64,000 nucleotides of DNA from an uncultured Candidatus Rokubacteria bacterium (GCA_963745015.1 CAVUVU010000018.1:13524-77523); one strand, 5' to 3'. Counted from the first letter of the stretch, positions 8,898 to 54,901 are shown. Notes: generated by a model not told the origin, from the sequence alone. Numbers and translations are program-made.

Positions 8898-10390
8898 TCA
8901 GTGGCCGAGCATGCTGGCGGGCCCGTCGCTGTGGAAGACCGCCGGGTTGGCGTCGCCCTCGACGACGAGAAAGCCGGCGAGCCCGCGCTCGAGCCGCGAC
9001 AGCGAGTGGTCGACCAGGATGTAGCGGCCCGGCACGTCGAGCTTGAACTCGACGATCGCGGCGCCCCCCGCCGGGACCATCGTCGTCTGCACGTTCGTGG
9101 CCGGCGGCGACCCCACGGCCGCCTCCTTGTACACGCGGTCGAAGATCTCGCCGATCACGTGGAAGGACGAGGTCGCGTTGGGCCCGCCCACCCCGAAGAA
9201 GATGCGGACGGTCTCCCCGACCTTGGCCTTCATCGGGTGCTCGGTGGTGAGCGCGCCGACGGCGCCGTTGAAGACGAAGTACTCGGCCCGCTCGCGAGGA
9301 GCTTCTCCACGCTGAACTCGTCGTGGCCCCGCTGCCCGAAGGGCCGGTCCGTGTACAGCTCCCCCTGCATCACGTAGTACTCGCGGTCGACCTTCGGCAG
9401 CCCGCCCGGCGGCTCGACCAGGATGAGCCCGTACATCCCGCTCGTGATGTGGTTGGCCACCATCGGCGTCGCGCAGTGGTAGACGTACAGCCCGGGGTTG
9501 AGCGCCTTGAAGCGCAGCGTCTTCGTCTCGCCCGGGGGGGTCTGGGTCGCCACCGCGCCGCCGCCGGGCCCCGTCGTCGCGTGGAAGTCCACCGAGTGGA
9601 TCATCCGGCTGTCCTTCCGGTTCTTGAAGGTCAGCTCGACCGTGTCCCCCACCCGCACGCGCAGGAACGGCCCCGGCACCTTGCTGTTGAAGGTCCAGTA
9701 GTTGTACGTCGTCTCGTTGGCCAGCCGGCCGACGAGCTCCACGGCCTCGAGCTCGACCTGGAACGTGCGCGGCGGGCCGGCCGCCAGCGGCCCCGGCAGG
9801 TCGACCGGGTCGCGCGCGATGCTCACCGACGGCGGCAGGGCCGCCACCGGCCCCTTGCCGGTCCCCACGATGAGCTTGCCTTCCATCCCCGCCGGCCGGT
9901 GGCCGGGCAGCGAGCAGAAGTACGCGAACTCGCCGCTCTTGTCGGCGCGGAACACGGTGACGCTGCTGGCGCCCTTCCGCGCGACCTTGTCGGTGCCGGC
10001 GCCGAAGTCGGGGAACACGACGTCGTGCTCGACGCCGTCGTTGTTGATGAGGGTGATCTGCACGACGTCGCCCTCGGCGACGCGGAGCGGCGGATTGACG
10101 ATGCCCTCGATGGAGCCGCCCACGCCGACGAAGGCCATCTTGCCGTCCGCCAGCTCCGTGCGGAGACGGAAGCGCACGGTCGGCGTGTACTCGGCGGCCG
10201 GGCTCTTCTTCGCCACCTTGGGCGCGCTGGGCGCGGCGCCTTGGGGGCTGGCGCCGCCGGCTTCGTCTGCGCCATGTGCCGGTGGCCCGCGACTGCCCGG
10301 ATCGGCGGCCTCGCCGGGCCCGTGCATCGCCGCCGTCACGACGAACGCCAGCCACGCAAGGACTACCAGGACCCGATCGCCTCGTCTCAT
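8898..10390 (-). CDS. nirK: copper-containing nitrite reductase with an extra N-terminal cupredoxin domain; reading frame broken once
   Basis: NirK Cu-ligand motifs: HSVDFHATTG, YVYHCATPMVANHITSGMYG, SFHVIGEIFD. The N-terminal domain carries blue-copper ligands (GVEHDVVF...YFCSLPGHRPAGMEG). A signal-like N-terminus is present. The frame breaks near 9289-9297 (...FSVEKLLA / ERAEYFVFNGAVG...). Confidence 0.85.
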
Positions 10391-10439: not shown

Positions 10440-10455
10440 TATGACGCCGATCACA
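10440..10455. promoter_or_regulatory. FNR/Dnr-type box TATGA-N6-TCACA upstream of nirK
   Basis: TATGACGCCGATCACA is centred about 57 nt upstream of the nirK ATG (10390). It is related to the boxes at 26723-26740 and 31519-31536. Confidence 0.5.
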
Positions 10456-20656: not shown

Positions 20657-21124
20657 ATGAAGATCGACATCGGCATCGAGGCAGCCAAACGAAAGGAGAT
20701 CGCGAACGGTCTCGCGCACGCGCTGGCCGATACGTACACGCTCTATCTCAAGACCCACAACTTCCACTGGAACGTGACGGGTCCCATGTTCCAGACGCTC
20801 CACTTGATGTTCGAAGCGCACTACAACGAGCTCGCGCTCGCGGTAGACCTCCTTGCCGAGCGGATCCGCGCGCTCGGCTTCCCTGCTCCGGGCACGTACA
20901 AGCACTTCGGCGAGCTCTCGGCCATCAAAGAAGAGGACGGCGTGCCAAAAGCGCAGGACTTGATCAGGAAGCTCGTCCAGGGCCACGAGACCGTCGCGCG
21001 TACCGCGCGCCTGGTCTTCAAGACCGCCGAGAGCGTGAGCGATCAGCCGACGTGCGACCTGCTGACGCAGCGGATGCAGGTCCACGAAAAGACAGCCTGG
21101 ATGCTCCGGAGCTTGCTGGAGTAG
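20657..21124 (+). CDS. dps: Dps-family DNA-protection/ferritin-like protein
   Basis: [46 protein letters not shown] are ferroxidase-site residues typical of Dps. Confidence 0.9.
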
Positions 21125-21609: not shown

Positions 21610-22031
21610 ATGCGAGTCAGCGAGCTCATGAGCCGGGACGTCGTGACGATCGGTGACACCGACACGTGCCACGAGGCGGTTGAGCAGATGTGCCGCCGGA
21701 AGGTCCGCACCTGCCGGTGCTGGATCGCGCGGGCACGCTCGTCGGTATCGTCACCGATCGCGATGTCCGGCACCGCTTGTTCGCTCCCGACGTCTACCGG
21801 CAGATCGGAACGGTTCCGCAGAAGGCCGGCGGGGGCCGCCGCCACGATCGCGCGCGAGATCGCCGTGCGCGAGCGGCTCGGGCGCGGGGCGCGCCGACTC
21901 CGGTGCCGGCTGACCCCCTACGGGCAGCGGCGAAAGCAGTGCCTCGCCCGGTCCCACTTGTCGCTGAAGCGTGCGCCGGATGGCGTGTTCCGGGTTCGAG
22001 TGCCACGGCTCTGACGGAGTTGCGCGCATGA
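21610..22031 (+). CDS. CBS-pair domain protein with at least two frame breaks
   Basis: MRVSELMSRDVVTIGDTDTCHEAVEQMCRRKVR is in one frame. HLPVLDRAGTLVGIVTDRDVRHRLFAPDVYRQIG is in a second frame, with the first switch near 21700. The second half is only patchily CBS-like across frames. The ATGA overlap with the globin gene is at 22028-22031. Confidence 0.5.
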
Positions 22032-22567
22032 ACACGCCACCGGCGAGCGGGACCGAGCCGAACAAGCGCGATGTCGAACTGTTCAACGACAGTCTGGAGC
22101 GATGCACCAGCGGCCACCGCTTTCTCGATCGCTTCTACGAGCTATTCGTCACCTCCTCGGCGGAGGTGGCCGCCAAGTTTGCGCACACGGACTTCCGTAT
22201 CCAGAAGGCCGCCGTGAAAGCCTCCCTCTACATGATCATGTCGAGCGTCGAACAGAAACCGGAGGGGAACGCTCATCTGGAACGCATCGCCGCCCGGCAC
22301 AGCCGGAACGCGCTGGATATCGGGCCCCACCTCTACGATCAGTGGCTCGAATGTCTCGTCCAGGCCGTTCGAGAGTGCGACCCCCTGTTCGGCAAGGAGG
22401 TCGAACAGGCCTGGCGCAGGGTCATGCGAGTGGGCATCGAGTTCCTGAAATCAAAGTACTCGAGCGACGGTCGCCCGCATCCAACGGGTCGGTCGGAAGG
22501 AGCGGGATCCTCGGATCCGGCGGCCGGCGGTGGCGCCGGCTCGCCCCCGGCCTACCGGGGCGGCTGA
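22028..22567 (+). CDS. single-domain globin-family protein (sensor-globin/protoglobin-like)
   Basis: FLDRFYELFVTSSAEVAAKFAHTDFRIQKAAVKASL...LERIAARHSRNALDIGPHLYDQWLECLVQAV shows a globin-fold helix pattern with a candidate proximal His. The C-terminal tail is low-complexity. Confidence 0.55.
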   Translation: MNTPPASGTEPNKRDVELFNDSLERCTSGHRFLDRFYELFVTSSAEVAAKFAHTDFRIQKAAVKASLYMIMSSVEQKPEGNAHLERIAARHSRNALDIGPHLYDQWLECLVQAVRECDPLFGKEVEQAWRRVMRVGIEFLKSKYSSDGRPHPTGRSEGAGSSDPAAGGGAGSPPAYRGG

Positions 22568-22998
22568 GGTGGCGAGACGCCTCCGGGCATGCGGACGCGC
22601 GTCCACATGTTGACGACGAAGGCCAGGGCGGCCGCCAGCTGCCCCAGTCCGCCGAGGGCGGCGAGCCAGGAGCCGCGGGTGCCCGCGGCGGCCGCGACCA
22701 GCTCACCAAGCACGCGCACGACCGTCGACGCGGTGAGCAGCCAGTAGACGAGCCAGGCGAGCGCGGGCCGATAGCGTGCATCATCCCGCGCTGGCCTGGG
22801 GAACATCCAGGTCGCCACCCCGAAGACCAGCGTGAGCATGAACCCGACCAGCACCAGGTGCACATGCGCGGTGATGAGTGGCCAGGGCACCGCGCGGCCG
22901 GCCAGGTTCACCACGACGGTGATGTACCCGCCGAGGACCAGCCCGAGGAGCAGGAACACGAAGCTCGTCTTGATGTACAGGCGGACCAGCGGCGTCAT
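22552..22998 (-). CDS. small 4-TM membrane protein with an H-x-H-L motif; last gene of the NO-type operon
   Basis: 148 aa. LITAHVHLVLVGFMLTLVFGVATWMFPRP resembles motifs in the NnrS-like and 12-TM proteins upstream. Confidence 0.6.
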   Translation of the reverse strand: MTPLVRLYIKTSFVFLLLGLVLGGYITVVVNLAGRAVPWPLITAHVHLVLVGFMLTLVFGVATWMFPRPARDDARYRPALAWLVYWLLTASTVVRVLGELVAAAAGTRGSWLAALGGLGQLAAALAFVVNMWTRVRMPGGVSPPQPPR

Positions 22999-23126
22999 GG
23001 CGACCTCGCGGTCAGGGCTCCCGATGGTGGCGGGGAATCGGACTCGAGCCGAGACATCAGCTCATGACGGCTCCGACCGCGGCCAGCATAGCACGCCGCC
23101 GGCGGGGGCGACGGCCGCCGGCGGGC

Positions 23127-24539
23127 TCAGGAGACGGCGATGCGCGCCGGCGTCCAGGGCGGGTCGAACGTGAGGGACACGTCGACGTGCTCGACGCCGG
23201 GAATCCCGAGCACCGCGCGCCGCACCCAGTCGAGCATCACCTCGTGAAGCGGGCAGCCCGCCGCCGTGAGCGTCATGGTGATGCGGACGGTGCCTCCCGC
23301 GATCCCGACGTCGTAGATCAGGCCCAGGTCGACGACCGAAAGCGAGAGCTCCGGGTCGAGGACTGATCGCAGGGCGTCGGTGACCTGCTCCGGGGTCACC
23401 GGGACATCGGAGCCGCCCGCCATCGCGACCAGCCCCGTGGGCGCCGTAGGTCCCGGGCCCGGTTGATAGACGCATCCCGGGTCCTCGGCCAGTGGGTCTC
23501 CCGTCGCTGCGTAGGCCCGAGCTCGGCTGCCGCCGCAGTGGGTGCGGTACTCGCAGCGGCCGCAGCGGCCGCCGAGCCGCGCCGGGTCGCGGAGCGCGCG
23601 GAAGAGCGGATCCTCCCGGTAGACGGTGACGAGGTCCTGGTCCCGCACGTTCCCCACCATGAGCGGCAGGAACCCGCTCGGGCAGATCCGGCCGAGGTGG
23701 TCGATGAAGACGAAGCCGTTGCCGTCGGTCACGGCGCGCCGGGGACGCCCGATGGCATCGGGCCGTGGGCGGGCCGCCGTGACGGCACCATCCGCCGCCG
23801 GCGACGCCAGCCGCGCGGCGCGGCGGCGCGTCGCGACGACGCGGAGGTAGTGCGGGGCCTCCGTGGTCTTCACCCCGAACGGGGCGTGCTCGGCGAGTGC
23901 CGCCGCCCAGTGGAGCACGCCCTCGATCTCCTCCGCCCGGAGCGTCTGACTCATCTGTCCGCGCCCCACCGGGATCAGGAAGAAGAGCGCCCAGAGCGTC
24001 GGCTGGATGGCCTCGAGCTCGGGGACGAGGCCGGGGAGCTCGTCCACCGTCTGCCGGCACACCGTGGTGTTGACCTGAAGCGGGATGCCCAGCTTCTTCG
24101 CGCGATCGAGGATGCGCATCGTGAAGCGATGCGAGCCCCGCACGCCCCGGAAGGCGTCGTGGGTCTCGGGCGTGGCCCCGTCGAGACTCACCGCCAGTCG
24201 CGCGAGTCCGGCGTCCCGCAGGGCCCGCAACCGCTCCTCGGTCACCGCCCCGGTCCCGCTCGGCGTCACGGAGACCGACACACCCCGCCGCGATCCGTAG
24301 GCCACGAGGTGCGCGAGGTCGGGGCGCCGGAAGGGATCGCCACCCGTGAGGACCAGGATGGGCGGGGGGCTACCGAATCCGGCCACGCGGTCGATCAGGC
24401 GACGTCCCTCCTCGGTCGTCAGCTCGCCAGAATCGCGATGGGGCGCCGCCTCGGCGCGGCAGTGGACGCAGGCGAGCGCACAGGCCCGGGTCGTCTCCCA
24501 GATGACGATGAAGGGAGCCTGCTCGAACGGACTGGTCAT
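23127..24539 (-). CDS. radical SAM/SPASM-domain enzyme fused to a C-terminal DUF59 (MIP18/SufT-like) domain
   Basis: FIVIWETTRACALACVHCRA (CxxxCxxC), SPASM-type GRCGRCEYRTHCGGSRARAY, and a C-terminal LDPELSLSVVDLGLIYDV...TLTAAGCPLHEVM...FDPPWTP (DUF59). Start at ATG 24539, overlapping the upstream stop (ATGA). Confidence 0.8.
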   Translation of the reverse strand: MTSPFEQAPFIVIWETTRACALACVHCRAEAAPHRDSGELTTEEGRRLIDRVAGFGSPPPILVLTGGDPFRRPDLAHLVAYGSRRGVSVSVTPSGTGAVTEERLRALRDAGLARLAVSLDGATPETHDAFRGVRGSHRFTMRILDRAKKLGIPLQVNTTVCRQTVDELPGLVPELEAIQPTLWALFFLIPVGRGQMSQTLRAEEIEGVLHWAAALAEHAPFGVKTTEAPHYLRVVATRRRAARLASPAADGAVTAARPRPDAIGRPRRAVTDGNGFVFIDHLGRICPSGFLPLMVGNVRDQDLVTVYREDPLFRALRDPARLGGRCGRCEYRTHCGGSRARAYAATGDPLAEDPGCVYQPGPGPTAPTGLVAMAGGSDVPVTPEQVTDALRSVLDPELSLSVVDLGLIYDVGIAGGTVRITMTLTAAGCPLHEVMLDWVRRAVLGIPGVEHVDVSLTFDPPWTPARIAVS

Positions 24540-25840
24540 GGCCGCGCCGGGAGCGCAGGGGCGTCCCGGCCCGCGACGCAGGGGCGCAGGTGCCACAGCG
24601 TGCGCCCAAGGGCCGCGGCGAACGCCAGCGCGCCAATGCCCACGATCGTCCCGGCCACCGCGATGGCCGCAGGCGCGCCAGCAGCCACGGTGGCGGCGAG
24701 GCCAAGGGTCCCGGCGGTGAGCAGCCCGTAGGCGAGCCGCTCGCCGGCCGGCCACGAGAGCTGGGCGACCGTGGGGACCGGCTCACGCCCGGCCCGCGGC
24801 GCGTAGACGCGGTACCAGACCAGGAACGGCACGATCTTGAGCATCATGCCGACGATGGTCAGCGAGGCCCAGCCGCCGAGCGCCAGGACGGCATACGCCA
24901 GCGCCATGCGCGGCCCGGACCCGACGCCGAGCGCGAACACCAGTCCCAGGATTCCCAGCGGCGCGAGGCACGCCGTGCCGGTGAGGACGAATCGTAGTCC
25001 CCAGTCGAGGGTCGGCCGCTTCCGCCGCCGGGCAAAGCCCACGACCCACCACACGTGAACCCCGAGCACCACCGCGACCAGGACGGCGCCCGGCACCACG
25101 AGCGCGGGCCGACCCAGCGCGAGCCCCAGGGCAACGGCGGGCACGCCGAGGCCCAGGCCCCCGAGCTGGACGGAGGCGCCCCAGCCGCCTGGCTCCGGCG
25201 CGAGGAGAAACATCGGATACACGCGCGCCGCGACGGCCACGATCATGGGGGCGATCCAGCCCAGGAGCGCCAGGTGGAAGTGGGCGTGCACGGCCCCGAG
25301 CGGCCCGCCCGGGAACACGTGCGCTCCGTGGGTCATCGCCAGCGTGAGCCCGAACGCGACCGTGAGCGTAAGCCCCCCGAGCGCGAGCGCGATCCCGCGG
25401 GCCGTGAAGGACCAGCGGGCCAGCCCGCGCAGGCTCAGGGCCACGTTGATCACGTGGGCGAGGATCCCGCCTCCCACCAGCGCGGCCGCCCACGAGAGGC
25501 CATCCCAGCTACCGATCCAGAAGTGGCTGACCATCCCGAGGATCCCGGCCGCGAGCCCCGGGAGCTGCCAGAGCGCGAGGCGCTCGCTGTAGAGCGGCCG
25601 CTCGATCACGACGGGGATCAGCTGGTAGCTCGCGCCCATGATGGCCAGCGTGATCCAGCCCAGCGTGACGACGTGCGTGAGGGCCAGGAGGCGCGGATGG
25701 TAGTAGTGCCCGGCCAGCGCCGGGGCCAGCCCGGGGAGCGCGAGGGCAGCCAGGACGAAGGCGGCCGCGGCCGTCACCAGGTAGGCGAGCGGCAGCGTCA
25801 CCGACGGGGCGCGCCCCGAACGCCCGCCCTGCGGGATCAT
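24536..25840 (-). CDS. His-rich polytopic (about 12 TM) membrane protein, distantly haem-copper-oxidase/NnrS-like
   Basis: 434 aa from ATG 25840. Motifs: GHYYHPRLLALTHVVTLGWITLAIMGASYQLIP and GAVHAHFHLALLGWIAPMIVAVAARVYPMF. ATGA overlaps occur at both ends. Confidence 0.65.
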   Translation of the reverse strand: MIPQGGRSGRAPSVTLPLAYLVTAAAAFVLAALALPGLAPALAGHYYHPRLLALTHVVTLGWITLAIMGASYQLIPVVIERPLYSERLALWQLPGLAAGILGMVSHFWIGSWDGLSWAAALVGGGILAHVINVALSLRGLARWSFTARGIALALGGLTLTVAFGLTLAMTHGAHVFPGGPLGAVHAHFHLALLGWIAPMIVAVAARVYPMFLLAPEPGGWGASVQLGGLGLGVPAVALGLALGRPALVVPGAVLVAVVLGVHVWWVVGFARRRKRPTLDWGLRFVLTGTACLAPLGILGLVFALGVGSGPRMALAYAVLALGGWASLTIVGMMLKIVPFLVWYRVYAPRAGREPVPTVAQLSWPAGERLAYGLLTAGTLGLAATVAAGAPAAIAVAGTIVGIGALAFAAALGRTLWHLRPCVAGRDAPALPARP

Positions 25841-26403
25841 GCCGCGGGGCCGCCCCGCCAGATCGCGATCCGGACGAGCCCCGGCTCGGGCTCGTCGGTT
25901 GCGTGCCGGCAGCCGCGCTCCTCGAGCTGCGGGTACAGGAAGAGGGGCCGCCGGTGATGGAGGACCTCGAGGCGCTGGCCAGGCGCCAGGGCCTCGACCG
26001 CCTCGAGGACGCGCACCATCGGCAGCGGCGGCTCGAGTCCCCGCACGTCCAGCCGGACCGGGACCTCGGGCGCCCGCGGGGCGGCCTCGGCCACGCCCCC
26101 CGCCGTCACGTGAGACGGGGACACCCCCGGCGGGTCGGTCGTCGCGTCGTCGCGAAAGAACCACACCCGCCAGTCCGTGGCCTCATCCGATTCCGTCCAG
26201 TGCGCGAAGCCGCGGCGAGCGAGGACGCGGTAGAGCGGGACCGGCTCGAATGGCGCCCGCAGGACCAGCACGCCGTCGGGCTGCAACGCATCGACCGCCG
26301 CCATGATTCGGGCGAACGGCTCGCGACCCTCGCGAAGGTCCTCGCGGACGTCGAGGTAGACGCGTGCCGCCTCGGGGAAACGGACGAGGGCCGCGGGCCT
26401 CAT
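25837..26403 (-). CDS. tandem DUF2249 (TusA-like fold) domain protein
   Basis: LDVREDLREGREPFARIMAAVDALQPDGVLVLRAPFEPVPLYRVLARRG and LDVRGLEPPLPMVRVLEAVEALAPGQRLEVLHHRRPLFLYPQLEERG. Start at ATG 26403. Confidence 0.7.
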   Translation of the reverse strand: MRPAALVRFPEAARVYLDVREDLREGREPFARIMAAVDALQPDGVLVLRAPFEPVPLYRVLARRGFAHWTESDEATDWRVWFFRDDATTDPPGVSPSHVTAGGVAEAAPRAPEVPVRLDVRGLEPPLPMVRVLEAVEALAPGQRLEVLHHRRPLFLYPQLEERGCRHATDEPEPGLVRIAIWRGGPAA

Positions 26404-26675
26404 GTCGCGGAGGGCACCACGAGGGGCTCCAGCGCGCACAGCAGCGTCTTGACTGGAATGCCGGCCGAGGCCGCGGCCTGCGCGAGCGTCAGGTGCCCGC
26501 CGCAACAGGCGTCGATCCCGAAGCGCTGCAGGATCATGAGCCCGTACGCCGACCGGAGCACGGCTTCCGCCACCGTGTCCTCGGGCACCAGGGCGGGCGA
26601 GCGCGCCGTGGTCCCCGCGGCCGGGGGGTTCGACGACGTTCCGTGACGCCATCCACATCCGCAGGACTGACTCAT
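26400..26675 (-). CDS. ScdA_N/DUF542-type domain protein (the N-terminal domain of RIC/YtfE proteins, standing alone)
   Basis: AEAVLRSAYGLMILQRFGIDACCGGHLTLAQAAASAGIPVKTLLCALE matches the GIDFCCGG...L.EA motif as I recall it. Confidence 0.65.
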   Translation of the reverse strand: MSQSCGCGWRHGTSSNPPAAGTTARSPALVPEDTVAEAVLRSAYGLMILQRFGIDACCGGHLTLAQAAASAGIPVKTLLCALEPLVVPSAT

Positions 26676-26722
26676 GGACTGGTCCTCCTCGATTCCAGCC
26701 TAGGGCAGGCGTGCACCCGCAC

Positions 26723-26740
26723 GTATGATCCGCGTCATAC
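26723..26740. promoter_or_regulatory. FNR/Dnr-type box GTATGA-N6-TCATAC
   Basis: GTATGATCCGCGTCATAC overlaps the NnrS-like stop codon. It is centred about 56 nt upstream of the ScdA_N ATG (26675). Confidence 0.5.
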
Positions 26741-28030
26741 AGCCGCCCGGTGGCACATGACGCCAAGGACATTCGCCGCGAGGCACGCCAGTGCGACCCA
26801 CACCAGCAGCCCTGACAGCGGCACAAGCGGCAGGACGGCCTCCGGACCGTAGTCGGCCAGAACCTCCGCCGTCCGAATGAGAACGCCCCCCAGGAGCATC
26901 CAGAACGCCACCCCGCGGAGCCGCGGCCAGGGCAACGGAGAGCCCTCGATGGCCGGAACCAGCCGGAATCCCATGCTCACCACCATCGTGGTGAGCACCC
27001 CCACCGTGACCAGATGTCGCAGCGCGTCAGCAATAAGGCTCAAGGGAGTCCCGGTCCACGCCACGGCAGCCGCGCCGATCGACCCCGCCGCGGCGACGCT
27101 CGCCGCCAGCATCGCCATCCGAAAGAGCCAGGTCTCCGGCCCGCCGCGGGCGGCCATCGGCAGGGCGCCCGGGGCGCCTCGGAAGGCGCCGCCGCGCAAC
27201 GCGACCACCCCCACCGTCGCGAGAACGACCGCCTCCCCGGCCCGCTCGAGCGCCACCCGCGTCCCGCCGGACCACGGCCCGGCGAAGCCCACTCCCGCGA
27301 GGACGACACCCAGGCCAAGTGCCCCCGGAGCCATCCGGGCCAGGGCATCGGGCACTCGCCATCGGGGAACGTGCATCGGCCCGGCCCGGACGACGACGCC
27401 CACGATCCATCCGAGCACGCCCCCGTAGATCGCCATCACGTGCGCCGCCCCCATCCCGCCGGGGTCGGGGCCGCCGCCGAAATCGCCGCTCGCGAGCGCC
27501 CGCGCGCGGAGGCCCGCCTCGACGACGAGGGCGAGGACGAGCCAGGCCGTGGCCGCGGTCAGGTACGTCCGCGTGAGCCGGAGGTGCGGCGCACCGAGGG
27601 CTCGCATCACCCAGACAGCGAAGAGCCCGAAGGCGAGCGCCTGGAGAAGCGCGGCCGCCACGGCGAGCACGGCGACGCCGGCGATGGCGCCGGTGATGCG
27701 CAGCCCGAGCGCGGTGCCGAGCGCGCCCGCGAGCCACGGAGTCAAGGGCGTCGCGGCCACCGGCCGTCCGGCGAACCGCGGGACGAGGTGATGGGCCACG
27801 CCGACGATCAGCGTCCCGAAGAAGCCGAAGGCCTGGAGATGGGCGTGGAGCCAGACGGACTCGGCCGACACCGGGCCGCCGCCCCAGTGGAGCCGCACGA
27901 GCATCCAGGTCCCGAGCGGCGTCCCGACCACGAGCGTGGCCGCCAGGGCGATCAGCCCGAACGGCCGATAGACGGGCGGCTCTCGCACAGACAGGGCCGG
28001 GCCGGACAGCATCGATGCCAGGACGGGCAA
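26735..28030 (-). CDS. NnrS-family-like haem/copper membrane protein
   Basis: 431 aa, about 12 TM. VWLHAHLQAFGFFGTLIVGVAHHLVPRFAGRP parallels the NnrS WH.HEM.FG...GFLLTA.P.WTGRP motif. A later RHLVTVGVLTTMVVSMGFR segment is also present. Confidence 0.7.
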   Translation of the reverse strand: MPVLASMLSGPALSVREPPVYRPFGLIALAATLVVGTPLGTWMLVRLHWGGGPVSAESVWLHAHLQAFGFFGTLIVGVAHHLVPRFAGRPVAATPLTPWLAGALGTALGLRITGAIAGVAVLAVAAALLQALAFGLFAVWVMRALGAPHLRLTRTYLTAATAWLVLALVVEAGLRARALASGDFGGGPDPGGMGAAHVMAIYGGVLGWIVGVVVRAGPMHVPRWRVPDALARMAPGALGLGVVLAGVGFAGPWSGGTRVALERAGEAVVLATVGVVALRGGAFRGAPGALPMAARGGPETWLFRMAMLAASVAAAGSIGAAAVAWTGTPLSLIADALRHLVTVGVLTTMVVSMGFRLVPAIEGSPLPWPRLRGVAFWMLLGGVLIRTAEVLADYGPEAVLPLVPLSGLLVWVALACLAANVLGVMCHRAAV

Positions 28031-28050
28031 CCAGGCGGGGGCGCCCTGGC

Positions 28051-28513
28051 CTACCGCGCCTCGTCGAGCCGGTACAGGGCATGGCAGGCCACACAGCTCC
28101 CCGTCACCCCGGCCAGCCCCCGGATGGCGTCGTCACGCGTGCCCCCGGCCTTGATCCGGTCTGCCAGGTCGTCGAATGCCCGGTGGGCCTGCAACCCGAG
28201 CTCGCGAAAGGCGGGCAAGAGCTGCCGCATCATCGCCGGGTCCATCTCCCGGCCATCGCGGTCCCGGCGGCCCGCGCGGCCTTCTCGACGGCAACCAGGT
28301 CGTTCGCCGCAACGCCGCGGAGAATGCCGTTGACGGACTCGAGCATGTGCCGCATCTCGGCGAGGACCTTGTCGCGAGCCTGCGGCGGCAACGTGAGTCG
28401 CTGTCGCGGGTCTCCCGGGGCCTGGCTGTTGCCGGGGCCCGCCAGCTCAGCATGATGCCGAGGACCACGAGAATCGCCGAGATTGTGCGCGGAGCGACTG
28501 CGCCACGTCGCAT
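28051..28513 (-). CDS. cytochrome c-prime-like four-helix haem protein (C-terminal CxxCH); two frame breaks
   Basis: AAGGAGG lies 5 nt before ATG 28513. Signal peptide: MRRGAVAPRTISAILVVLGIMLS. Middle part, in a second frame: LPPQARDKVLAEMRHMLESVNGILRGVAANDLVAVEKAARAAGTAMAG. End part, in a third frame: MDPAMMRQLLPAFRELGLQAHRAFDDLADRI...GSCVACHALYR. The switches are near 28445 and 28252. Confidence 0.6.
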
Positions 28514-28539
28514 CGCATCCTCCTTGGTCACGCGCTGTG

Positions 28540-29135
28540 TTACCCACCCGCCTTGACGGCCACCTGGAACGGATACATCCGCGGGATGGCGAGCGCGAGC
28601 GCCGTCGCCGCGACGATTCCCAGGATAGTCCCACCAGGAAGAGTGCCCAGGTGCTCGGCCGCATGGCGCCGAGGGCCACGATGGTGAAGAAGATCGGCAA
28701 GTCGAGGAAGTGGGTGAAGGTCGGCAGGTGCTCCCCGCGGGCGCTCTCGAGCTCCGGGGTGGTGGACCCCTGCGCCAGCGCGGCCCGGGTCAGCCGGCGA
28801 AGCCGCATGAAGTAGAGCCGCGTGATCGTGTTCCCTTCGACGAACTCGAACGTGAACAGGGCCACCATCCCGGCCAGCCACGGCATGCCGAGGAACGCCC
28901 AACCGCCGTAGACCGTGACGATCAGCCAGGTGCCGGAGCCCAGCAGGAGGAGGGCCCCGGGCACGACAAGGCCGTCGTAGAACACGGCGATCTGGCGGAT
29001 GCTCTCGGCGAAGAGCGGGAGCTCGCGGACCTGCCGGGAGCGCAGGTCGGCGTACCAGACGCCGATGAGCCCCGCGCCCATCAGTACGAGGCCGAGCAGA
29101 TGGAGGAATCTCAGGATGGGATAGGTGATCGGCAA
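28540..29135 (-). CDS. DUF2269-like integral membrane protein; one frame break
   Basis: TTG start after GGGAGG. MPITYPILRFLHLLGLVLMGAGLIGVWYADL...HFLDLPIFFTIVALGAMRPSTWALFLVG. The end, ILGIVAATALALAIPRMYPFQVAVKAGG, is in another frame. The switch is near 28637-28645. Confidence 0.55.
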
Positions 29136-29183
29136 CGTTCAGCCTCCCTGAGCCGTCGCTGAACGATTCCCACGGTGCAGCAG

Positions 29184-30679
<1,496 letters not shown>

Positions 30680-30725
30680 GCGCCTGTCTCCCTCGGTGCT
30701 CGTTGGGCGGCAGCCGCCCGTCCCG

Positions 30726-31224
30726 TCAGCGGTGCCCCGCCGGGCGCGACGGCCCGCCTCCACGCAAGGCCAGCTCCTGCTGGCTCGAGAGCTCGAGCAG
30801 GAGGACCTGACCCCGGGCTGACCTCCACCTCCGCCACGAGCCGCCGCTCGGGCGGCGACGTCGCGTCGCTCCGCGCGGGCCCGCCGGCCTCTTCCAGCGT
30901 CGCTTCGAGGCGGTGGCGTCCCGGGGGCAGGTCGAGCTCCTCGTACACGAAGGTCGGGCCATCGCCCCGAAGCCCACTTGGCCGGTACGTCTTGTCGAGG
31001 ACGGGCCGGCCGTCCAGCGTCACACGGACCGTCGTGTCACGGCGGCCCCGGCTCTCCCCCTGCTGGCCACCTTCGGGCCGCATGTGCCGCGGAAGCTTCT
31101 CCAGCTCCTCCCGCGAGATCATGGCGAAGAGCACGAGGCACCACGCCAGCGCGATGCTCAGCCACAGCTTCTCGCTCCGGTCGACCTTCTTCCACCACAC
31201 GCCCTTGAGCGCCTGGATGCTCAT
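30726..31224 (-). CDS. membrane-anchored hypothetical protein (N-terminal TM plus a beta-rich domain); probable frame break at the G-run 30811-30814
   Basis: MSIQALKGVWWKKVDRSEKLWLSIALAWCLVLFAMI...TVRVTLDGRPVLDKTYRP...RHRLEATLEE...LVAEVEVSPG, then QVLLLELSSQQELALR in the next frame. Confidence 0.45.
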
Positions 31225-31233
31225 CGCGGCCTC

Positions 31234-31440
31234 CTACTTGGGGAGATCGAAGGGAGGCGCCACCGGGATGCTCGCGATCTCGAGCAGCCCCCAGATCGTG
31301 TAGAACACGACCGGGACCACGAGCCCCAGGACGAGCAGGAGGAAGATGTTGTCGAAGAAGACCTGGGCCAGTGGCACCCTCTCGGCGGTCGCTCCCGTGT
31401 CGGGCGGGGTCCCCGATCCCTCCTGATTGCCGTCGGCCAT
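31234..31440 (-). CDS. small single-TM hypothetical protein (68 aa)
   Basis: VFFDNIFLLLVLGLVVPVVFYTIWGLL. G/C third-position bias. It lies 9 nt upstream of the next gene. Confidence 0.45.
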   Translation of the reverse strand: MADGNQEGSGTPPDTGATAERVPLAQVFFDNIFLLLVLGLVVPVVFYTIWGLLEIASIPVAPPFDLPK

Positions 31441-31518
31441 GACGCACCCTCCTGTTGACCGGTCAGGCGACGCTCGTCGATGCTCGGGCGCGAGCGTACG
31501 CGGGCCCGGCCGGGGCGG

Positions 31519-31536
31519 TTATGATCCTAGTCATAC
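31519..31536. promoter_or_regulatory. FNR/Dnr-type box TATGA-N6-TCATA in a divergent promoter region
   Basis: TTATGATCCTAGTCATAC. 15 of 17 positions are identical to the box at 26723-26740. It lies about 87 nt from ATG 31440 (-) and about 91 nt from GTG 31619 (+). Confidence 0.5.
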
Positions 31537-31618
31537 GGCGCCAGGACCGGACCGCCCACCATGCCCCGTGGACGCGGCGGCATCGAGGTGGAGGACCGGG
31601 CGGAGCGTGGGAGGGAAC

Positions 31619-32430
31619 GTGGCCGAGGAGCGTCCGGTGCCCGGCGAGACCCGAGCCGACCACGCGCCGCGGCGGAACGGGGGGTTCTGGAGCGCCCGCA
31701 CGGTCGCCTGGTACCAACGTGCGCTGGCCCGAAGCGACTACGCGACGCGGATCCTCGGGGCGATCGATCTCCAGCTCGCGGGGATCACCAGCGTCCTCGA
31801 CGTGGGGGCCGGCTGCGGCGCGCTGGCCCTACCCCTCGCGGAGCGGATCCCGCGCGGGACGGCCCTCGAGCCCGCGCAGCCCATGGCCGCCGCCCTCCGC
31901 GCCGAGGCCGAGCGGCGGGGGCTCCGGCGGCTGACCGTCGTGCAGGCGGCGTGGGTGAGGTGGTCCTGCCACCCCACGACCTGGTCCTGTGCGCCCATGT
32001 GGGCGAGCTGACCCGACCGGGAGCGCGCTTCCTGGCGGACGCCGCCCGGTGGGCCCGGCGCTGGGTCGTGGTCGTGCGGGACCGTGAGGCCGAATCGGAC
32101 AAGCTCTTCTTCCGCGAGCTCTACCCGCTGCTCCTCGGCCGGCCGTACGGCGGAGGCTCCGACTACGGGGACATGCTGGCGGGGCTGGCCGACCTTGGTG
32201 TGCGTCCCGAGGTCGTCGCCGTCGACTACCGGTCCGACCAGCCCTTCGCCGACCTGGACGAGGCCTGCGACTTCTACGAGGCGTACCTCGGCGTGTCGGG
32301 CCCGGAGGCGCGCGGCTTCCTCCGGGCCTTCCTGGCCGCCCGGCTGGTGCGAGAGCCGGATGGCTGGGTGGCGCCGTATGCGAAGCGGGCCGTGGTGCTC
32401 CGCTGGCCAGGCGCGGCCGGTGGAGGCTGA
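31619..32430 (+). CDS. class I SAM-dependent methyltransferase; one frame break
   Basis: GTG start after GGGAGGGAA. SAM motif I VLDVGAGCGALALPLA. The switch is near 31953-31957 (…LTVVQAAW / GEVVLPPHDLVLCAHVGEL…). Confidence 0.6.
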
Positions 32431-53761: not shown

Positions 53762-54901
53762 TCAGCCGCGGAGACCGAGACCGAGCAGGACGACCGCGAG
53801 CGCGACGACGACGTTGATGCGGGCGATCCAGGACGCCCGGATTCGGACGGACGGATCGGCCCCGGGACTGCCCGCGCGCGGCCCGAGCACCCAGTCATGG
53901 CACGCGCTCAAGATCAGGGCGAGGACGACAAGGCCGAGCTTCCAGTGGAACCGCGGGTCGTGGAGCAGGAATGGCTGGAGCCACAGGTTCAGAAGTCCGG
54001 TGACGGCCAGGAGCGCCAGCGCGATCCAGCCAATTGTCCGGAAGCGGTAGCCGCTCTCCTGCATGAGGCGAGTCCGAAGTCGGTCATCGCCGAGCGCGCG
54101 GGCCGTGGGGACGAGGACCAGCGCGATGAACAGCATGCCGCCCACCCAGGTGATCGCCGAGAGGACGTGGATCCAGCGAATGAGCAGAGTCACTACCCGG
54201 CCGTCTCCCTCGGCGAGGCCGCGCAGGGCGTCCCCGTCCCGCACAACCAGCCGGCCACCTCGGTCCTCCACGACCTCGTCCCGCAGCCAGCGGCTCACGA
54301 CGCGGATCGCGGTCTCGACGGTCGTCCCGCACATGTCCGCCAGGCTCTGCCGCGTCAGATGGAAGGGCAGCTCGACCCCGTCCTTGGTGCGGAGCCCCTC
54401 CCGGTCGGCCAGCCGCATGAGCGTCGCGGCCAGGCGCGTCTCGACGGGGTCGACCGATCGGGTGACCGAGTCGTGGGCCGCCCGGAGGCGGCGCCCGATC
54501 AAGAGCGCCATCTCGCGCACGACCGGCGGATGCCGCTCCGAGAGCTCCACGACGACGGCCGCCGGGATCTTCACCACGACGCTCGGCTCCGTGGCCTGGG
54601 CCGCGGCGGGGTATGGCCGCCGCTCGATCACCGCGACGCCGCCGAAGATCTCGCCGGGACCGAGGAGCTCCAGGACCACGTCCTTGCCCGCGCGGGAGTG
54701 CCGGACGATGCGAATGCGCCCGGTCTTGACGAGACACAGCCAGAGCGCCGGGTCGCCCTCGTGGAAGACGTACTCGCGGGCTCGACACGATTCCTCACGG
54801 GCCGTCGCCGCCAGCGACTCGATCTCTCGCGCCGGAAGGCCGGCGAAGACGGGGCTGGTCTGCAGGAACTCGATGACCTCCCTCGGGCCGGGGCGCGACA
54901 T
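53762..54901 (-). CDS. Crp/Fnr-family regulator (cNMP-binding + HTH) read in frame into a 4-TM CopD/HemJ-like membrane domain
   Basis: FLQTSPVFAGLPAREIESLA…GEIFGGVAVIE…HLTRQSLADMCGTTVETAIRVVSRWLRD…LVVRDGDALRGLAEG, then VTLLIRWIHVLSAITWVGGMLFIALVLVP… An internal in-frame GTG lies at 54193. Confidence 0.7.
   Translation of the reverse strand: MSRPGPREVIEFLQTSPVFAGLPAREIESLAATAREESCRAREYVFHEGDPALWLCLVKTGRIRIVRHSRAGKDVVLELLGPGEIFGGVAVIERRPYPAAAQATEPSVVVKIPAAVVVELSERHPPVVREMALLIGRRLRAAHDSVTRSVDPVETRLAATLMRLADREGLRTKDGVELPFHLTRQSLADMCGTTVETAIRVVSRWLRDEVVEDRGGRLVVRDGDALRGLAEGDGRVVTLLIRWIHVLSAITWVGGMLFIALVLVPTARALGDDRLRTRLMQESGYRFRTIGWIALALLAVTGLLNLWLQPFLLHDPRFHWKLGLVVLALILSACHDWVLGPRAGSPGADPSVRIRASWIARINVVVALAVVLLGLGLRG

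What the first reader, a model, noticed from the sequence alone, without database searches (positions are those of the whole stretch)
22552..29135. Eight-gene, translationally coupled NO/nitrosative-stress-type operon lacking any canonical NO reductase
Seen in the sequence: same-strand genes with tiny gaps or ATGA overlaps (26400-26403, 25837-25840, 24536-24539). In order they are a DUF2269-like membrane protein, a cytochrome c-prime-like protein (C-terminal CVACH), an NnrS-like protein, a stand-alone ScdA_N domain, a tandem DUF2249 protein, a His-rich 12-TM protein, a radical-SAM/SPASM-DUF59 fusion, and a 4-TM protein. Established knowledge: cytochrome c-prime binds NO. NnrS is a haem/copper membrane protein of NO-responsive regulons. 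The ScdA/YtfE N-terminal domain belongs to RIC proteins that repair NO-damaged Fe-S centres. Inference: nirK (8898-10390) makes NO, yet I find no norB/norC, hmp or norVW in the window. The His-rich 12-TM protein has HYYH, THVVTLGW...GASYQLIP and HAHFHLALLGW motifs reminiscent of haem-copper-oxidase helices. It may be a novel membrane NO-handling enzyme, possibly matured by the radical-SAM protein. This is a hypothesis only.
Basis: partly seen in the sequence, partly recalled or inferred. Interest (0 to 1): 0.75.

Follow-up and report, generated by a model that had tools for sequence, protein, structure and literature searches.

The report
Oxidase-like membrane haem module beside nirK
A soil Rokubacteria gene cluster encodes three distant, stripped-down relatives of the respiratory oxidase / nitric-oxide-reductase catalytic subunit plus small helper proteins and a haem-synthase-like enzyme, switched on from the same DNA control site as nitrite reductase; it probably helps the cell cope with nitric oxide, but it is not a standard nitric oxide reductase and its chemistry is untested.

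Summary
The eight same-strand genes exist at 29135-22552. Only four are ATGA-coupled (ScdA_N, 2xDUF2249, 12-TM, radical-SAM/DUF59). DUF2269 and the cytochrome c'-like gene carry three 1-nt deletions that intact relatives lack.

The His-rich 12-TM protein has the NorB/CcoN fold (AlphaFold pTM 0.90, Foldseek TM up to 0.76), and a family profile matches cbb3 CcoN helix X (E 2.7e-10). It lacks the TM7 HH and TM10 HxH ligands. Across the wider family only H56 (TM2) and H187 (TM6) are invariant.

The 12-TM protein, the NnrS-like protein and the 4-TM protein are three-, three- and one-repeat relatives of each other. This fits the 'HCO homology' proteins described in silico by Pei et al. 2014.

The core order DUF2249, 12-TM, DUF59 recurs in other lineages. 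The AhbD-like radical-SAM domain was seen only in Rokubacteria.

A palindrome, TATGAC-N4-GTCATA, lies about 57 nt upstream of ScdA_N in 50 of 66 loci. It also precedes nirK and a ba3-like oxidase/NOR operon. That operon is missing from this window, leaving a fusion scar at about 31118.

Verdict: an NO-linked accessory haem module. It is a new variant of a known kind, and its function is unproven.

The parts
28540..29135 (-). DUF2269-like membrane protein gene, broken by a 1-nt deletion near 28629
   Evidence: Pfam PF10027 scores E 7e-25 after joining the two frames. The deletion is seen against intact L013 and L055. The gene is present only in the closest relatives.
28051..28513 (-). Secreted cytochrome c'-like protein (C-terminal CVACH), broken by 1-nt deletions near 28444 and 28249
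   Evidence: It has a signal-peptide-like N-terminus and a C-terminal CxxCH. Pfam Cytochrom_C_2 scores E 3e-4, 22 bits, below the 26.5 cutoff. There is no PDB sequence match. Intact ORFs exist in L013, L055 and L001.
26735..28030 (-). NnrS-like 12-TM protein (431 aa), a three-repeat HCO-homology paralogue
   Evidence: Pfam NnrS scores 25 bits against a cutoff of 28. hhalign to the 12-TM family gives 96.7%. The broad-family HMM scores E 1.4e-15. It was found in L005, L006, L013 and L055 and, at 44-53% identity on the opposite strand, in L047, L053, L054 and L056.
26724..26739 (.). Operator-like palindrome TATGATCCGCGTCATA (consensus TATGAC-N4-GTCATA), centred about 57 nt upstream of the ScdA_N start
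   Evidence: The palindrome is enriched about 29-fold over background. It is present with at most 3 mismatches in 50 of 66 upstream regions, most often 57-59 nt from the start, and 40 copies are perfect. The window copy has 1 mismatch.
26400..26675 (-). Stand-alone ScdA_N (DUF542) domain protein, 91 aa, with the CCGG motif
   Evidence: Pfam PF04405 scores E 1e-10. The RIC equivalogs score far below cutoff because there is no hemerythrin domain. An ATGA overlap joins it to the next gene.
25837..26403 (-). Tandem DUF2249 protein, 188 aa (TusA-like fold)
   Evidence: Pfam PF10006 scores E 1.4e-38 with two stretches. It lies directly upstream of the 12-TM gene in nearly all of the 69 related loci (68 of 69 by tblastn) and in KSB1 and other lineages.
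24536..25840 (-). 12-TM three-repeat HCO-homology protein, 434 aa. Invariant H56 (TM2) and H187 (TM6). The Rokubacteria subfamily also conserves H45, H48, H106, H129, H189 and H262
   Evidence: AlphaFold pLDDT is 87.6 and pTM 0.90. Foldseek hits NorB 4xyd/3o0r and CcoN 3mk7/9g6b, with TM up to 0.76. The profile hits CcoN at E 2.7e-10. Pfam COX1 scores only 25.6 bits against a cutoff of 34.8.
23127..24539 (-). Radical-SAM/SPASM enzyme (AhbD-like, TIGR04053) fused to a C-terminal DUF59 domain, 470 aa
   Evidence: TIGR04053 scores 468 bits against a cutoff of 395. AhbD scores 304 against 500. FeS_assembly_P scores E 5.5e-20 at residues 384-454. More than 100 fused homologues exist, and some sources name them 'AdoMet-dependent heme synthase'. 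An ATGA overlap joins it to the 12-TM gene.
22552..22998 (-). 4-TM single-repeat HCO-homology protein, 148 aa, with an AHVH motif
   Evidence: hhalign to each third of the 12-TM family gives 96.7, 94.7 and 93.6%. Pfam COX1 scores E 1e-7, below cutoff. The listed relatives (top 120) are 76-99% identical. The Foldseek search of its model was uninformative.
10440..10455 (.). Weaker copy of the same palindrome (TATGACGCCGATCACA), about 57 nt upstream of the nirK ATG at 10390
   Evidence: One search found it with 2 mismatches. Palindromes precede nirK in 16 of 29 related loci.
8898..10390 (-). nirK with an N-terminal cupredoxin domain; the reading frame changes near 9300-9340
   Evidence: Pfam finds Cu-oxidase_3, Cu-oxidase_2 and cupredoxin domains. 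tblastn gives two pieces in different frames.
31520..31535 (.). Third copy of the palindrome (TATGATCCTAGTCATA), at the head of the remnant of the oxidase/NOR operon
   Evidence: One search found it with 1 mismatch. The same palindrome lies 214-273 nt upstream of the COX2-like gene in all 10 loci that carry that operon.
30676..31413 (-). Remnant of a B-family-type HCO operon. It comprises a small-protein gene (31413-31237) and then a chimeric ORF: the first 36 aa of a CuA-type subunit II fused near 31118 to the C-terminal part of an unrelated 205-aa protein
   Evidence: tblastn and blastn against L001 show the window lacks about 7.2 kb. The missing stretch carries the rest of COX2, COX1, a COX1-like gene, UbiA, SCO1 and cytB/Fer4 (gene list).
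54200..54883 (-). Crp/FNR-family regulator, the candidate binder of the palindrome
   Evidence: It is 72% identical to the regulator next to the 4-TM gene in L002. Pfam finds cNMP_binding and HTH_Crp_2. Homologues lie beside the module in 47 loci.

Best explanation
This is an accessory module of NirK-type nitrite reduction in Rokubacteria (phylum Methylomirabilota).

1. The central protein. The 12-TM protein is made of three 4-helix repeats and has the fold of the NorB/CcoN catalytic subunit. It has lost the canonical two-haem plus Cu/Fe centre. It keeps one invariant histidine in TM2 (H56) and one in TM6 (H187). Both sit about two turns in from the periplasmic face. I infer that they hold a single b-type haem, as proposed for NnrS-like 'HCO homology' proteins.
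2. Its partners. Two further paralogues are encoded in the cluster: an NnrS-like three-repeat protein and a very conserved one-repeat 4-TM protein. On the cytoplasmic side the 12-TM protein works with small domains that travel with it across lineages: DUF2249 upstream and DUF59 downstream or fused. Here a stand-alone RIC-type ScdA_N domain is added.
3. The radical-SAM domain. In Rokubacteria the DUF59 partner has gained an AhbD-like radical-SAM/SPASM domain. I infer that it makes haem b from coproheme without oxygen, supplying the haem proteins of the cluster during anoxic nitrite reduction.
4. Regulation. A Crp/FNR-type palindrome is shared with nirK and with a ba3-like oxidase/NOR operon. 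I infer that the module is switched on together with NO production.
5. Function. The most likely role is NnrS-like. The membrane haem binds or passes electrons to NO, or to nitrosylated iron species, and protects or restores cytoplasmic iron and Fe-S centres. Bulk NO reduction is less likely.

Shown here: fold, repeat structure, ligand pattern, gene order, operator. Inferred: haem binding, NO as ligand, the haem-synthase role, the regulator-operator pairing.
For: - Fold and homology: AlphaFold pTM 0.90. All significant Foldseek PDB hits are HCO/NOR subunit I. The family profile hits CcoN at E 2.7e-10 and NorB at 7.9e-4. hhalign to COX1 gives 93.5% and 91.6%.
- Repeat structure and paralogy: the 4-TM protein matches each third of the 12-TM family at 93.6-96.7%. 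The NnrS-like protein matches the 12-TM family at 96.7%.
- Ligand pattern: only H56 and H187 are invariant in 108 and in 40 diverse sequences.
- Context: the order ScdA_N, DUF2249, 12-TM, rSAM/DUF59 is conserved across the 69 related loci (DUF2249 directly upstream of the 12-TM gene in 68 of 69).
- The triad DUF2249, 12-TM, DUF59 also occurs in KSB1 and in two further metagenome loci of unidentified, apparently different lineages. DUF59 is fused to either end of the 12-TM protein in some relatives.
- Radical-SAM enzyme: it is a TIGR04053 member with AhbD as the next-best family. Reviews state that an AhbD-like enzyme is the expected anaerobic coproheme decarboxylase (PMC10114771, PMC13564367).
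- Operator.
- Crp-family neighbour.
- Prior description of the class and its DUF2249 link: Pei et al. 2014, as cited in PMC11218638.
Against: - No experiment exists for this family.
- Haem binding by H56 and H187 is inferred from position only.
- The Rokubacteria subfamily conserves six extra histidines, four of them near the periplasmic face. A simple one-haem carrier does not need them, and they could form a second metal site.
- The NnrS analogy rests on distant homology. The Pfam NnrS model does not hit the 12-TM protein.
- No NO-sensor motif was shown in the Crp-family protein. Classical FNR/Dnr boxes are absent.
- The AhbD equivalog cutoff is not met, so the radical-SAM substrate could be something else.
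Confidence: 0.55

Rival explanations
1. One reading: the 12-TM protein, perhaps with the 4-TM protein, is a new kind of NO reductase. It would use a haem plus a re-invented non-haem metal site built from the subfamily-specific histidines, and it would remove the NO made by NirK.
For: - It has the NorB/CcoN fold.
- It shares an operator with nirK and lies near it.
- Eight histidines are conserved in the Rokubacteria subfamily. By helix position, H45, H48, H56, H106, H187 and H189 all lie near the periplasmic face.
- After a one-repeat rotation, H187 and H56 align with the catalytic-haem ligand and the first CuB/FeB histidine (hit 3, probability only 55.6%).
- c-type cytochrome genes often lie upstream.
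- This window lacks any other NOR candidate, and the neighbouring oxidase/NOR operon is missing.
- Murali et al. 2024 (PMC11214002) show that several different HCO active sites can reduce NO.
Against: - The canonical TM7 HH and TM10 HxH ligands are absent.
- Only two histidines are conserved in the wider family.
- Most relatives carry the module together with a ba3-like, Tyr-less HCO operon. That operon is the better NOR candidate.
- The invariable partners are cytoplasmic DUF2249 and DUF59, not a periplasmic electron-donor subunit.
Confidence: 0.15
2. The module is a cofactor maturation or insertion system. The radical-SAM/DUF59 protein makes or modifies a haem or Fe-S cofactor, and the membrane protein hands it to denitrification enzymes such as the neighbouring HCO or c-type cytochromes. 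On this view it is not itself an NO-handling protein.
For: - ATGA coupling joins the 12-TM gene to an AhbD-like enzyme.
- DUF59 belongs to families annotated for Fe-S assembly: SufT, PaaD and SUF-associated models all hit.
- SCO1 and UbiA assembly genes lie in the same regulon in relatives.
- HemW is a precedent for a radical-SAM haem chaperone acting at the membrane (PMC10114771).
Against: - Outside Rokubacteria the module has no radical-SAM enzyme.
- In this window the module persists although the neighbouring HCO operon is gone.
- Three paralogous haem-type membrane proteins seem excessive for a chaperone.
Confidence: 0.12
3. The module is a membrane sensor. The 4-TM protein and/or the 12-TM haem protein senses NO, O2 or redox state and signals to the Crp-family regulator.
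For: - The Crp-family gene and the 4-TM gene stay adjacent even when the pair is inverted relative to the core.
- The 4-TM protein is unusually conserved.
- DUF2249 proteins DrpA and DrpB of Thermus were proposed as nitrate sensors (cited in PMC11218638).
Against: - In this window the regulator lies 30 kb away, while the 4-TM gene follows the radical-SAM gene.
- No signalling domain is present in any of the proteins.
- Crp-family NO and O2 sensors normally sense directly.
Confidence: 0.1
4. In this organism the cluster is a decaying remnant: real frameshifts in two genes, a frameshifted nirK and a deleted oxidase operon. On this view it has no current function.
For: - There are three 1-nt deletions in DUF2269 and the cytochrome c'-like gene.
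- nirK and the carboxylesterase are also read across more than one frame.
- The oxidase/NOR operon is missing, leaving a fusion scar.
Against: - The five genes from the NnrS-like gene to the 4-TM gene are intact. They are 82-93% identical to the closest relatives, with full coverage.
- Frameshifts scattered over unrelated genes are what indel errors in a long-read metagenome assembly look like. The nearest relatives are long-contig MAGs.
Confidence: 0.05

Closest known systems
HCO homology (HCOH) proteins of Pei, Li, Kinch and Grishin 2014 (Protein Sci 23:1220)
   Same: - Three-repeat 12-TM and single-repeat 4-TM relatives of HCO subunit I.
- The repeats most resemble TM9-12.
- About two conserved histidines.
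- Neighbourhoods with DUF2249 and denitrification or NO genes.
My own results reproduce each of these points.
   Different: - I could not read the paper, so I cannot say which of its families this is.
- I know of no description of four features seen here. They are the AhbD-like radical-SAM/DUF59 fusion, the six extra conserved histidines, three paralogues in one cluster, and the TATGAC-N4-GTCATA operator.
NnrS (Pfam PF05940), a haem- and copper-containing membrane protein of NO-responsive regulons (Rhodobacter, Vibrio; from my own knowledge)
   Same: - 12 TM helices.
- Distant homology: hhalign gives 96.7% between the window's NnrS-like protein and the 12-TM family.
- Association with nir and NO genes.
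   Different: - The 12-TM protein does not hit the NnrS model at all, and none of 40 family members does.
- Even the 431-aa NnrS-like protein is below the gathering score.
cNOR NorB and cbb3 oxidase CcoN (PDB 3o0r, 4xyd, 3mk7)
   Same: - The whole-length 12-helix fold, with TM-score 0.66-0.76.
- A helix-X-like H-x-H...GW...P motif.
   Different: - Sequence identity is 11-16%.
- There is no TM7 HH and no TM10 HxH, so no canonical low-spin haem or binuclear centre.
- No NorC or CcoO partner is encoded in the window.
- The Pfam COX1 score is below cutoff.
AhbD haem b synthase and the TIGR04053 radical-SAM/SPASM family
   Same: - A CX3CX2C radical-SAM motif plus a SPASM cysteine cluster.
- TIGR04053 scores above cutoff, and AhbD is the next-best family at 304 bits.
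   Different: - The AhbD equivalog cutoff (500 bits) is not met.
- It has a C-terminal DUF59 fusion.
- It is encoded beside an oxidase-like membrane protein rather than haem-pathway genes.
RIC proteins (YtfE/ScdA/DnrN)
   Same: The N-terminal ScdA_N domain with its CCGG motif is present.
   Different: The di-iron hemerythrin domain is absent. The RIC equivalogs score 20-26 bits against cutoffs of 205-259.
B-family-derived NORs (eNOR, sNOR, gNOR, nNOR) of Murali et al. 2024 (PMC11214002)
   Same: The operon next to this module in relatives has three matching features:
- a CuA-type subunit II;
- a COX1 with all six histidines;
- Gln in place of the cross-linked Tyr, with Thermus ba3 oxidase as its closest solved relative.
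   Different: That operon is not in this window, where only a fused remnant is left. I did not assign it to a named NOR family.

Membership tests
Haem-copper oxidase / NOR catalytic subunit (Pfam COX1) | 12-TM fold with three 4-helix repeats | tested here: met
   AlphaFold pTM is 0.90. Foldseek gives TM 0.66-0.76 to NorB and CcoN. The repeats are shown by hhalign.
Haem-copper oxidase / NOR catalytic subunit (Pfam COX1) | Six canonical histidines (TM2, TM6, TM7 x2, TM10 x2) | tested here: not met
   No conserved His lies in TM7 or TM10. Only the TM2 and TM6 histidines are invariant.
Haem-copper oxidase / NOR catalytic subunit (Pfam COX1) | Score above the Pfam gathering threshold | tested here: not met
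   The score is 25.6 bits against a cutoff of 34.8, and the match runs from repeat 1 to TM9-11 of the model.
cNOR / qNOR | FeB site (three His plus Glu) and a NorC or quinol-binding domain | tested here: not met
   The ligands are absent. No NorC-like gene is in the window.
HCO homology (HCOH) proteins, three-repeat type | Three homologous 4-TM units resembling HCO TM9-12, with about two conserved His | tested here: met
   hhalign gives 93.6-96.7% between the 4-TM protein and each third. H56 aligns to the second His of helix X. Two histidines are invariant.
HCOH proteins, single-repeat type (the 4-TM protein) | A stand-alone 4-TM unit homologous to one HCO repeat | tested here: met
   Supported by hhalign, HMM E 5.7e-11 and a weak Pfam COX1 hit at 1e-7. 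The structural check was inconclusive.
NnrS (PF05940), for the 431-aa protein | Score above the gathering threshold | tested here: not met
   It scores 25 bits against a cutoff of 28, although the match covers the full length.
NnrS (PF05940), haem and copper content | Bound haem b and Cu | not testable with these tools
   This needs protein purification and metal analysis.
TIGR04053 radical SAM/SPASM | Score above the NCBIfam cutoff | tested here: met
   It scores 468 bits against a cutoff of 395.
AhbD haem b synthase (TIGR04545) | Score above the equivalog cutoff; coproheme decarboxylase activity | tested here: not met
   It scores 304 bits against a cutoff of 500. Activity is not testable here.
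RIC (YtfE/ScdA) | ScdA_N domain plus a hemerythrin-like di-iron domain | tested here: not met
   Only the ScdA_N domain is present.
Cytochrome c' (PF01322) | C-terminal CxxCH on a four-helix bundle; score above threshold | tested here: inconclusive
   The CVACH motif is present. The score is 22 bits against a cutoff of 26.5. There is no PDB sequence hit. The fold was not modelled.
Crp/FNR-regulated denitrification regulon | A shared palindromic operator upstream of co-regulated genes, with a Crp-family regulator nearby | tested here: met
   The operator is supported, and the regulator. Binding itself was not tested.

The most novel reading that the evidence does not exclude
In Rokubacteria the His-rich 12-TM protein, together with the 4-TM single-repeat protein, is a previously unrecognised NO-converting membrane metalloenzyme. 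It would have rebuilt a haem/non-haem-metal site in a different position of the oxidase fold. It would be loaded by its own tethered AhbD-like haem synthase. It could substitute for a conventional NO reductase in NirK-bearing genomes such as this one, which has lost the neighbouring oxidase/NOR operon.
Probability: 0.15. Interest if true: 0.8.

Novelty: new variant of a known kind. Interest (0 to 1): 0.5.

Why it matters
Rokubacteria are abundant in soils and groundwater, and many carry nirK. What happens to the NO they make bears on soil NO and N2O budgets.

The module is a conserved, co-regulated companion of nirK. It is built on a stripped-down oxidase/NOR fold whose chemistry nobody has tested.

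The work gives concrete handles for experiments:
- two invariant histidines;
- a set of subfamily-specific histidines;
- fixed protein partners (DUF2249, DUF59);
- a tethered haem-synthase-like enzyme;
- a sharply defined 16-bp operator that marks the regulon.

It also warns against reading 'nirK without nor' from this contig. The relatives' candidate NOR operon is missing here, and several genes carry likely assembly indels.

Tried and rejected
1. Classical FNR/Dnr box (TTGAT-N4-ATCAA). There is nothing near the cluster in the window, and only 1 of 12 hits across all loci lies near an anchor gene. I rejected it in favour of the palindrome found de novo.
2. Sigma-70 promoter and intrinsic terminator scan of 22000-31700. 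It found no promoter-like sites and one terminator-like site inside the radical-SAM gene, which is no more than the shuffled-sequence expectation.
3. PDB sequence search with the narrow Rokubacteria profile gave no hits. The broader profile was needed.
4. AlphaFold plus Foldseek for the 4-TM protein. The model is moderate (pLDDT 74.6), and no hit reached E 0.001. The single-repeat assignment therefore rests on profile comparison alone.
5. PDB sequence search for the cytochrome c'-like protein found nothing meaningful.
6. Transporter hypothesis for the 12-TM protein. I rejected it because no transporter appears among the 50 significant structural matches.
7. The 791-aa ORF at 11379-13754 as a possible qNOR. 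I rejected it because it is a phosphoketolase.
8. Reading Pei et al. 2014 directly: the paper is not held. A literature search for TIGR04053 found nothing.
9. Deciding whether H56 and H187 bind the same haem by pseudo-symmetry arguments. The argument is not decisive without coordinates, so I left it as inference.

Full report
**1. What is in the sequence**

The window is about 70% G+C. Its closest relatives are metagenome-assembled genomes of Candidatus Rokubacteria (phylum Methylomirabilota). The best match is 90% identical at protein level for the 12-TM gene.

Family searches give:
- DUF2269: E 7e-25 after frame repair.
- A cytochrome c'-like protein ending in CVACH: Pfam 22 bits, below the 26.5 cutoff.
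- An NnrS-like 431-aa protein: 25 bits, below the cutoff of 28.
- A stand-alone ScdA_N domain: E 1e-10.
- A tandem DUF2249 protein: E 1e-38.
- The 434-aa 12-TM protein: only a weak COX1 hit, 25.6 bits against 34.8.
- A radical-SAM/SPASM protein with a C-terminal DUF59 domain: TIGR04053 scores 468 bits against a cutoff of 395, and AhbD scores 304 against 500.
- A 148-aa 4-TM protein: weak COX1 and NnrS hits.

The three ATGA overlaps are real, but they link only ScdA_N, DUF2249, the 12-TM protein and the radical-SAM protein. The other junctions are gaps of about 26, 20, 59 and 128 nt.

**2. Sequence quality**

DUF2269 and the cytochrome c'-like gene are each split across frames. Alignment with L013, L055 and L001 shows three single-base deletions in the window, near 28629, 28444 and 28249. 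The cytochrome c'-like gene is a single intact ORF in L013, L055 and L001, and DUF2269 is intact in L013 and L055 (in L001 only a fragment matches).

The upstream carboxylesterase (29184-30597) and nirK (8898-10390) also change frame. The nearest relatives come from long-contig MAG assemblies. I therefore read these as probable assembly indels, but real pseudogenes cannot be excluded.

**3. The 12-TM protein is an oxidase/NOR-fold protein without the canonical active site**

- *Abundance.* The word-indexed search found 978 relatives. Those that carry a name are called 'hypothetical protein' or given weak oxidase subunit I names.
- *Structure.* With 32 relatives as the alignment, AlphaFold gave a confident model (pLDDT 87.6, pTM 0.90, twelve long helices). 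Foldseek against the PDB returned 50 significant hits, and every one is an HCO or NOR subunit I. These include NorB 4xyd and 3o0r (E about 1e-7) and cbb3 CcoN (TM-score up to 0.76), at 11-16% identity. No transporter appears.
- *Sequence.* The narrow profile found nothing in the PDB. A profile of 40 diverse relatives hits CcoN 3mk7 at E 2.7e-10. That match aligns '...THL.TLGW...YQLvPV' to helix X, 'GHVHAGALGW...YHLVPKV'. The same profile hits NorB at 7.9e-4. hhalign against a bona fide six-histidine COX1 gives 93.5% (repeat 1 against TM10-12) and 91.6% (collinear).
- *Missing ligands.* The protein has no conserved histidine in TM7 or TM10.
- *Invariant histidines.* The exhaustive search found 2991 clusters at E below 1e-3. 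Among 108 full-length members (median 29% identity to the window protein) only H56 (TM2) and H187 (TM6) are invariant, and H189 is kept in 70%. A second set of 40 members agrees.
- *Subfamily-specific histidines.* H45, H48, H106, H129, H189 and H262 are conserved only in the Rokubacteria subfamily.
- *Position in the membrane.* This part is inference from helix boundaries and the positive-inside N-terminus. H45, H48, H56, H106, H187 and H189 lie near the periplasmic face. H129 and H262 lie near the cytoplasmic face.

**4. Three paralogues, one repeat unit**

hhalign aligns the 4-TM protein to each third of the 12-TM family at 96.7, 94.7 and 93.6%. It aligns the NnrS-like protein to the 12-TM family at 96.7%. 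HMMs built from each family find exactly these three ORFs in the window and no canonical COX1 or NorB.

This is the picture published by Pei, Li, Kinch and Grishin in 2014. They described three-repeat and single-repeat 'HCO homology' proteins, NnrS included, mostly with two conserved histidines and found in denitrification or NO contexts. I recall this from the abstract. The paper itself is not held. Its existence and its link to DUF2249 are confirmed by citing papers. None of 40 family members hits the Pfam NnrS model, and 31 weakly hit COX1, so no curated family covers it.

A structural check of the 4-TM protein alone was uninformative.

**5. Conserved neighbourhood**

In the 69 related loci the order ScdA_N, 2xDUF2249, 12-TM, radical-SAM/DUF59 is conserved; DUF2249 lies directly upstream of the 12-TM gene in 68 of 69 loci, ScdA_N was not detected in about a quarter, and the radical-SAM gene follows in most loci whose contig extends far enough. 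Around this core:
- The 4-TM gene is nearby in about half of the loci.
- A Crp-family regulator gene is present in 47 loci.
- nirK lies within 10 kb in 21 of the 41 loci that have at least 5 kb of downstream sequence.
- NnrS-like, cytochrome c'-like and DUF2269 genes occur together, in the window's arrangement, only in the nearest relatives. More distant NnrS-like genes lie on the opposite strand in four other loci (L047, L053, L054, L056).

Outside Rokubacteria the triad DUF2249, 12-TM, DUF59 persists without a radical-SAM enzyme. I saw this in one KSB1 locus and two loci from other lineages. DUF59 can also be fused to either end of the 12-TM protein, which places both termini and DUF59 in the cytoplasm.

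More than 100 radical-SAM/DUF59 fusions exist, and some sources label them 'AdoMet-dependent heme synthase'. Reviews say that an AhbD-like enzyme is the expected oxygen-independent coproheme decarboxylase.

**6. A shared operator**

A de novo search of the upstream regions found the palindrome TATGAC-N4-GTCATA, enriched about 29-fold over background. It is present with at most 3 mismatches in 50 of 66 regions, most often 57-59 nt from the ScdA_N start, and 40 copies are perfect.

The same palindrome lies 214-273 nt upstream of a COX2-like gene in all 10 loci that carry that operon. It precedes nirK in 16 of 29 loci.

The window has three copies:
- 26724-26739, with 1 mismatch, upstream of ScdA_N;
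- 10440-10455, with 2 mismatches, about 57 nt upstream of nirK;
- 31520-31535, with 1 mismatch.

Its 5-4-5 geometry matches Crp/FNR-type sites, but the sequence is not the FNR/Dnr consensus. The neighbouring Crp-family protein as seen in the L002 homologue has no N-terminal cysteine cluster (read from the sequence). Pairing this regulator with this operator is inference.

**7. The missing oxidase/NOR operon**

In relatives the third box heads an operon. It encodes:
- a small protein;
- a CuA-type subunit II;
- a 555-aa COX1 with all six histidines but Gln in place of the cross-linked Tyr ('GHSSQQ');
- a second COX1-like protein;
- UbiA and SCO1.

The closest solved relative of this COX1 is Thermus ba3 oxidase, at E about 1e-36. 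That matches the general description of B-family-derived NORs in Murali et al. 2024, but I did not assign it to a named family.

The window keeps the small gene (31413-31237) and the first 36 codons of subunit II. Near 31118 the sequence then continues into the C-terminal part of a 205-aa protein that in L001 lies 7.2 kb further on. This is either a real deletion or an assembly collapse.

Either way, 'no NOR in the window' is true. It should not be read as evidence that the 12-TM protein replaces one, because most relatives have both.

**8. Interpretation**

The best-supported reading is an NO-linked accessory haem module of the NnrS/HCOH kind, co-regulated with nirK. It would work through a single periplasm-proximal haem held by H56 and/or H187. 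Its cytoplasmic partners are DUF2249, DUF59 and ScdA_N. In Rokubacteria it carries a tethered AhbD-like enzyme that supplies haem b under anoxia.

- Shown here: fold, repeats, ligand pattern, synteny and operator.
- Inferred: haem binding, NO as the ligand, the enzyme's substrate, and the regulator-operator pairing.

The subfamily's cluster of periplasm-side histidines could form a second metal site. After a one-repeat rotation, the two invariant histidines align with the catalytic-haem ligand and the first CuB/FeB histidine (hit 3, only 55.6%).

Against it stand three points:
- the canonical ligands are lost;
- only two histidines are invariant family-wide;
- a better NOR candidate co-occurs in relatives.

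**9. Verdict**

The protein class is already described in silico but has not been studied experimentally.

The Rokubacteria version adds new features: the radical-SAM/DUF59 fusion, the extra histidines, three paralogues in one cluster and a well-defined operator. I rate it a new variant of a known kind, with interest 0.5.

Noticed in passing
window 26724-26739, 31520-31535, 10440-10455; related loci L001-L069: A 16-bp palindrome, TATGAC-N4-GTCATA, marks a regulon. It lies upstream of the ScdA_N core, nirK and a ba3-like oxidase/NOR operon, usually at fixed spacing. It is not the FNR/Dnr, NnrR, NsrR or HcpR consensus as I recall them.
   Followed up: yes
window 30676-31413 (junction near 31118): This looks like a fusion scar. 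The first 36 codons of a CuA-type oxidase subunit II are joined to the tail of an unrelated 205-aa protein. Compared with L001, about 7.2 kb is missing. That stretch carries COX1, a COX1-like gene, UbiA, SCO1 and cytB/ferredoxin.
   Followed up: yes
window 28249, 28444, 28629; also 29184-30597 and about 9300-9340: Single-base deletions break DUF2269 and the cytochrome c'-like gene, and the carboxylesterase and nirK also change frame. Relatives are intact, so these are probably assembly indel errors.
   Followed up: partly
window 21971-22567 (+): A single-domain globin gene (Pfam Globin, 30.5 bits) converges on the 4-TM gene, and the two overlap by 16 nt. No homologue appears in any of the 69 related loci (L001-L069).
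   Followed up: partly
loci L023, L025, L039, L043, L049 and others; window 54200-54883: The Crp-family regulator gene and the 4-TM gene stay adjacent as a pair even when inverted relative to the core. In this window they are 30 kb apart.
   Followed up: partly
L002 18680-20110; L001 2759-4225: A second COX1-like gene (476-488 aa) follows the six-histidine COX1 in the neighbouring operon. It appears to have a single His where TM7 normally has HH. Its role is unknown.
   Followed up: no
window 8898-10390: NirK carries an extra N-terminal cupredoxin domain. Some relatives instead have a C-terminal cytochrome c domain (L002).
   Followed up: no
L070 6476-6832; L002 7351-8523: c-type cytochrome genes often sit just upstream of the DUF2249/12-TM genes. 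In KSB1 it is a mono-haem, FixO-like protein, and in L002 a multihaem one. They are possible electron donors.
   Followed up: no
window 20657-21124 and 14212-15165: A Dps-like gene and a tandem universal-stress-protein gene lie between the cluster and nirK.
   Followed up: no
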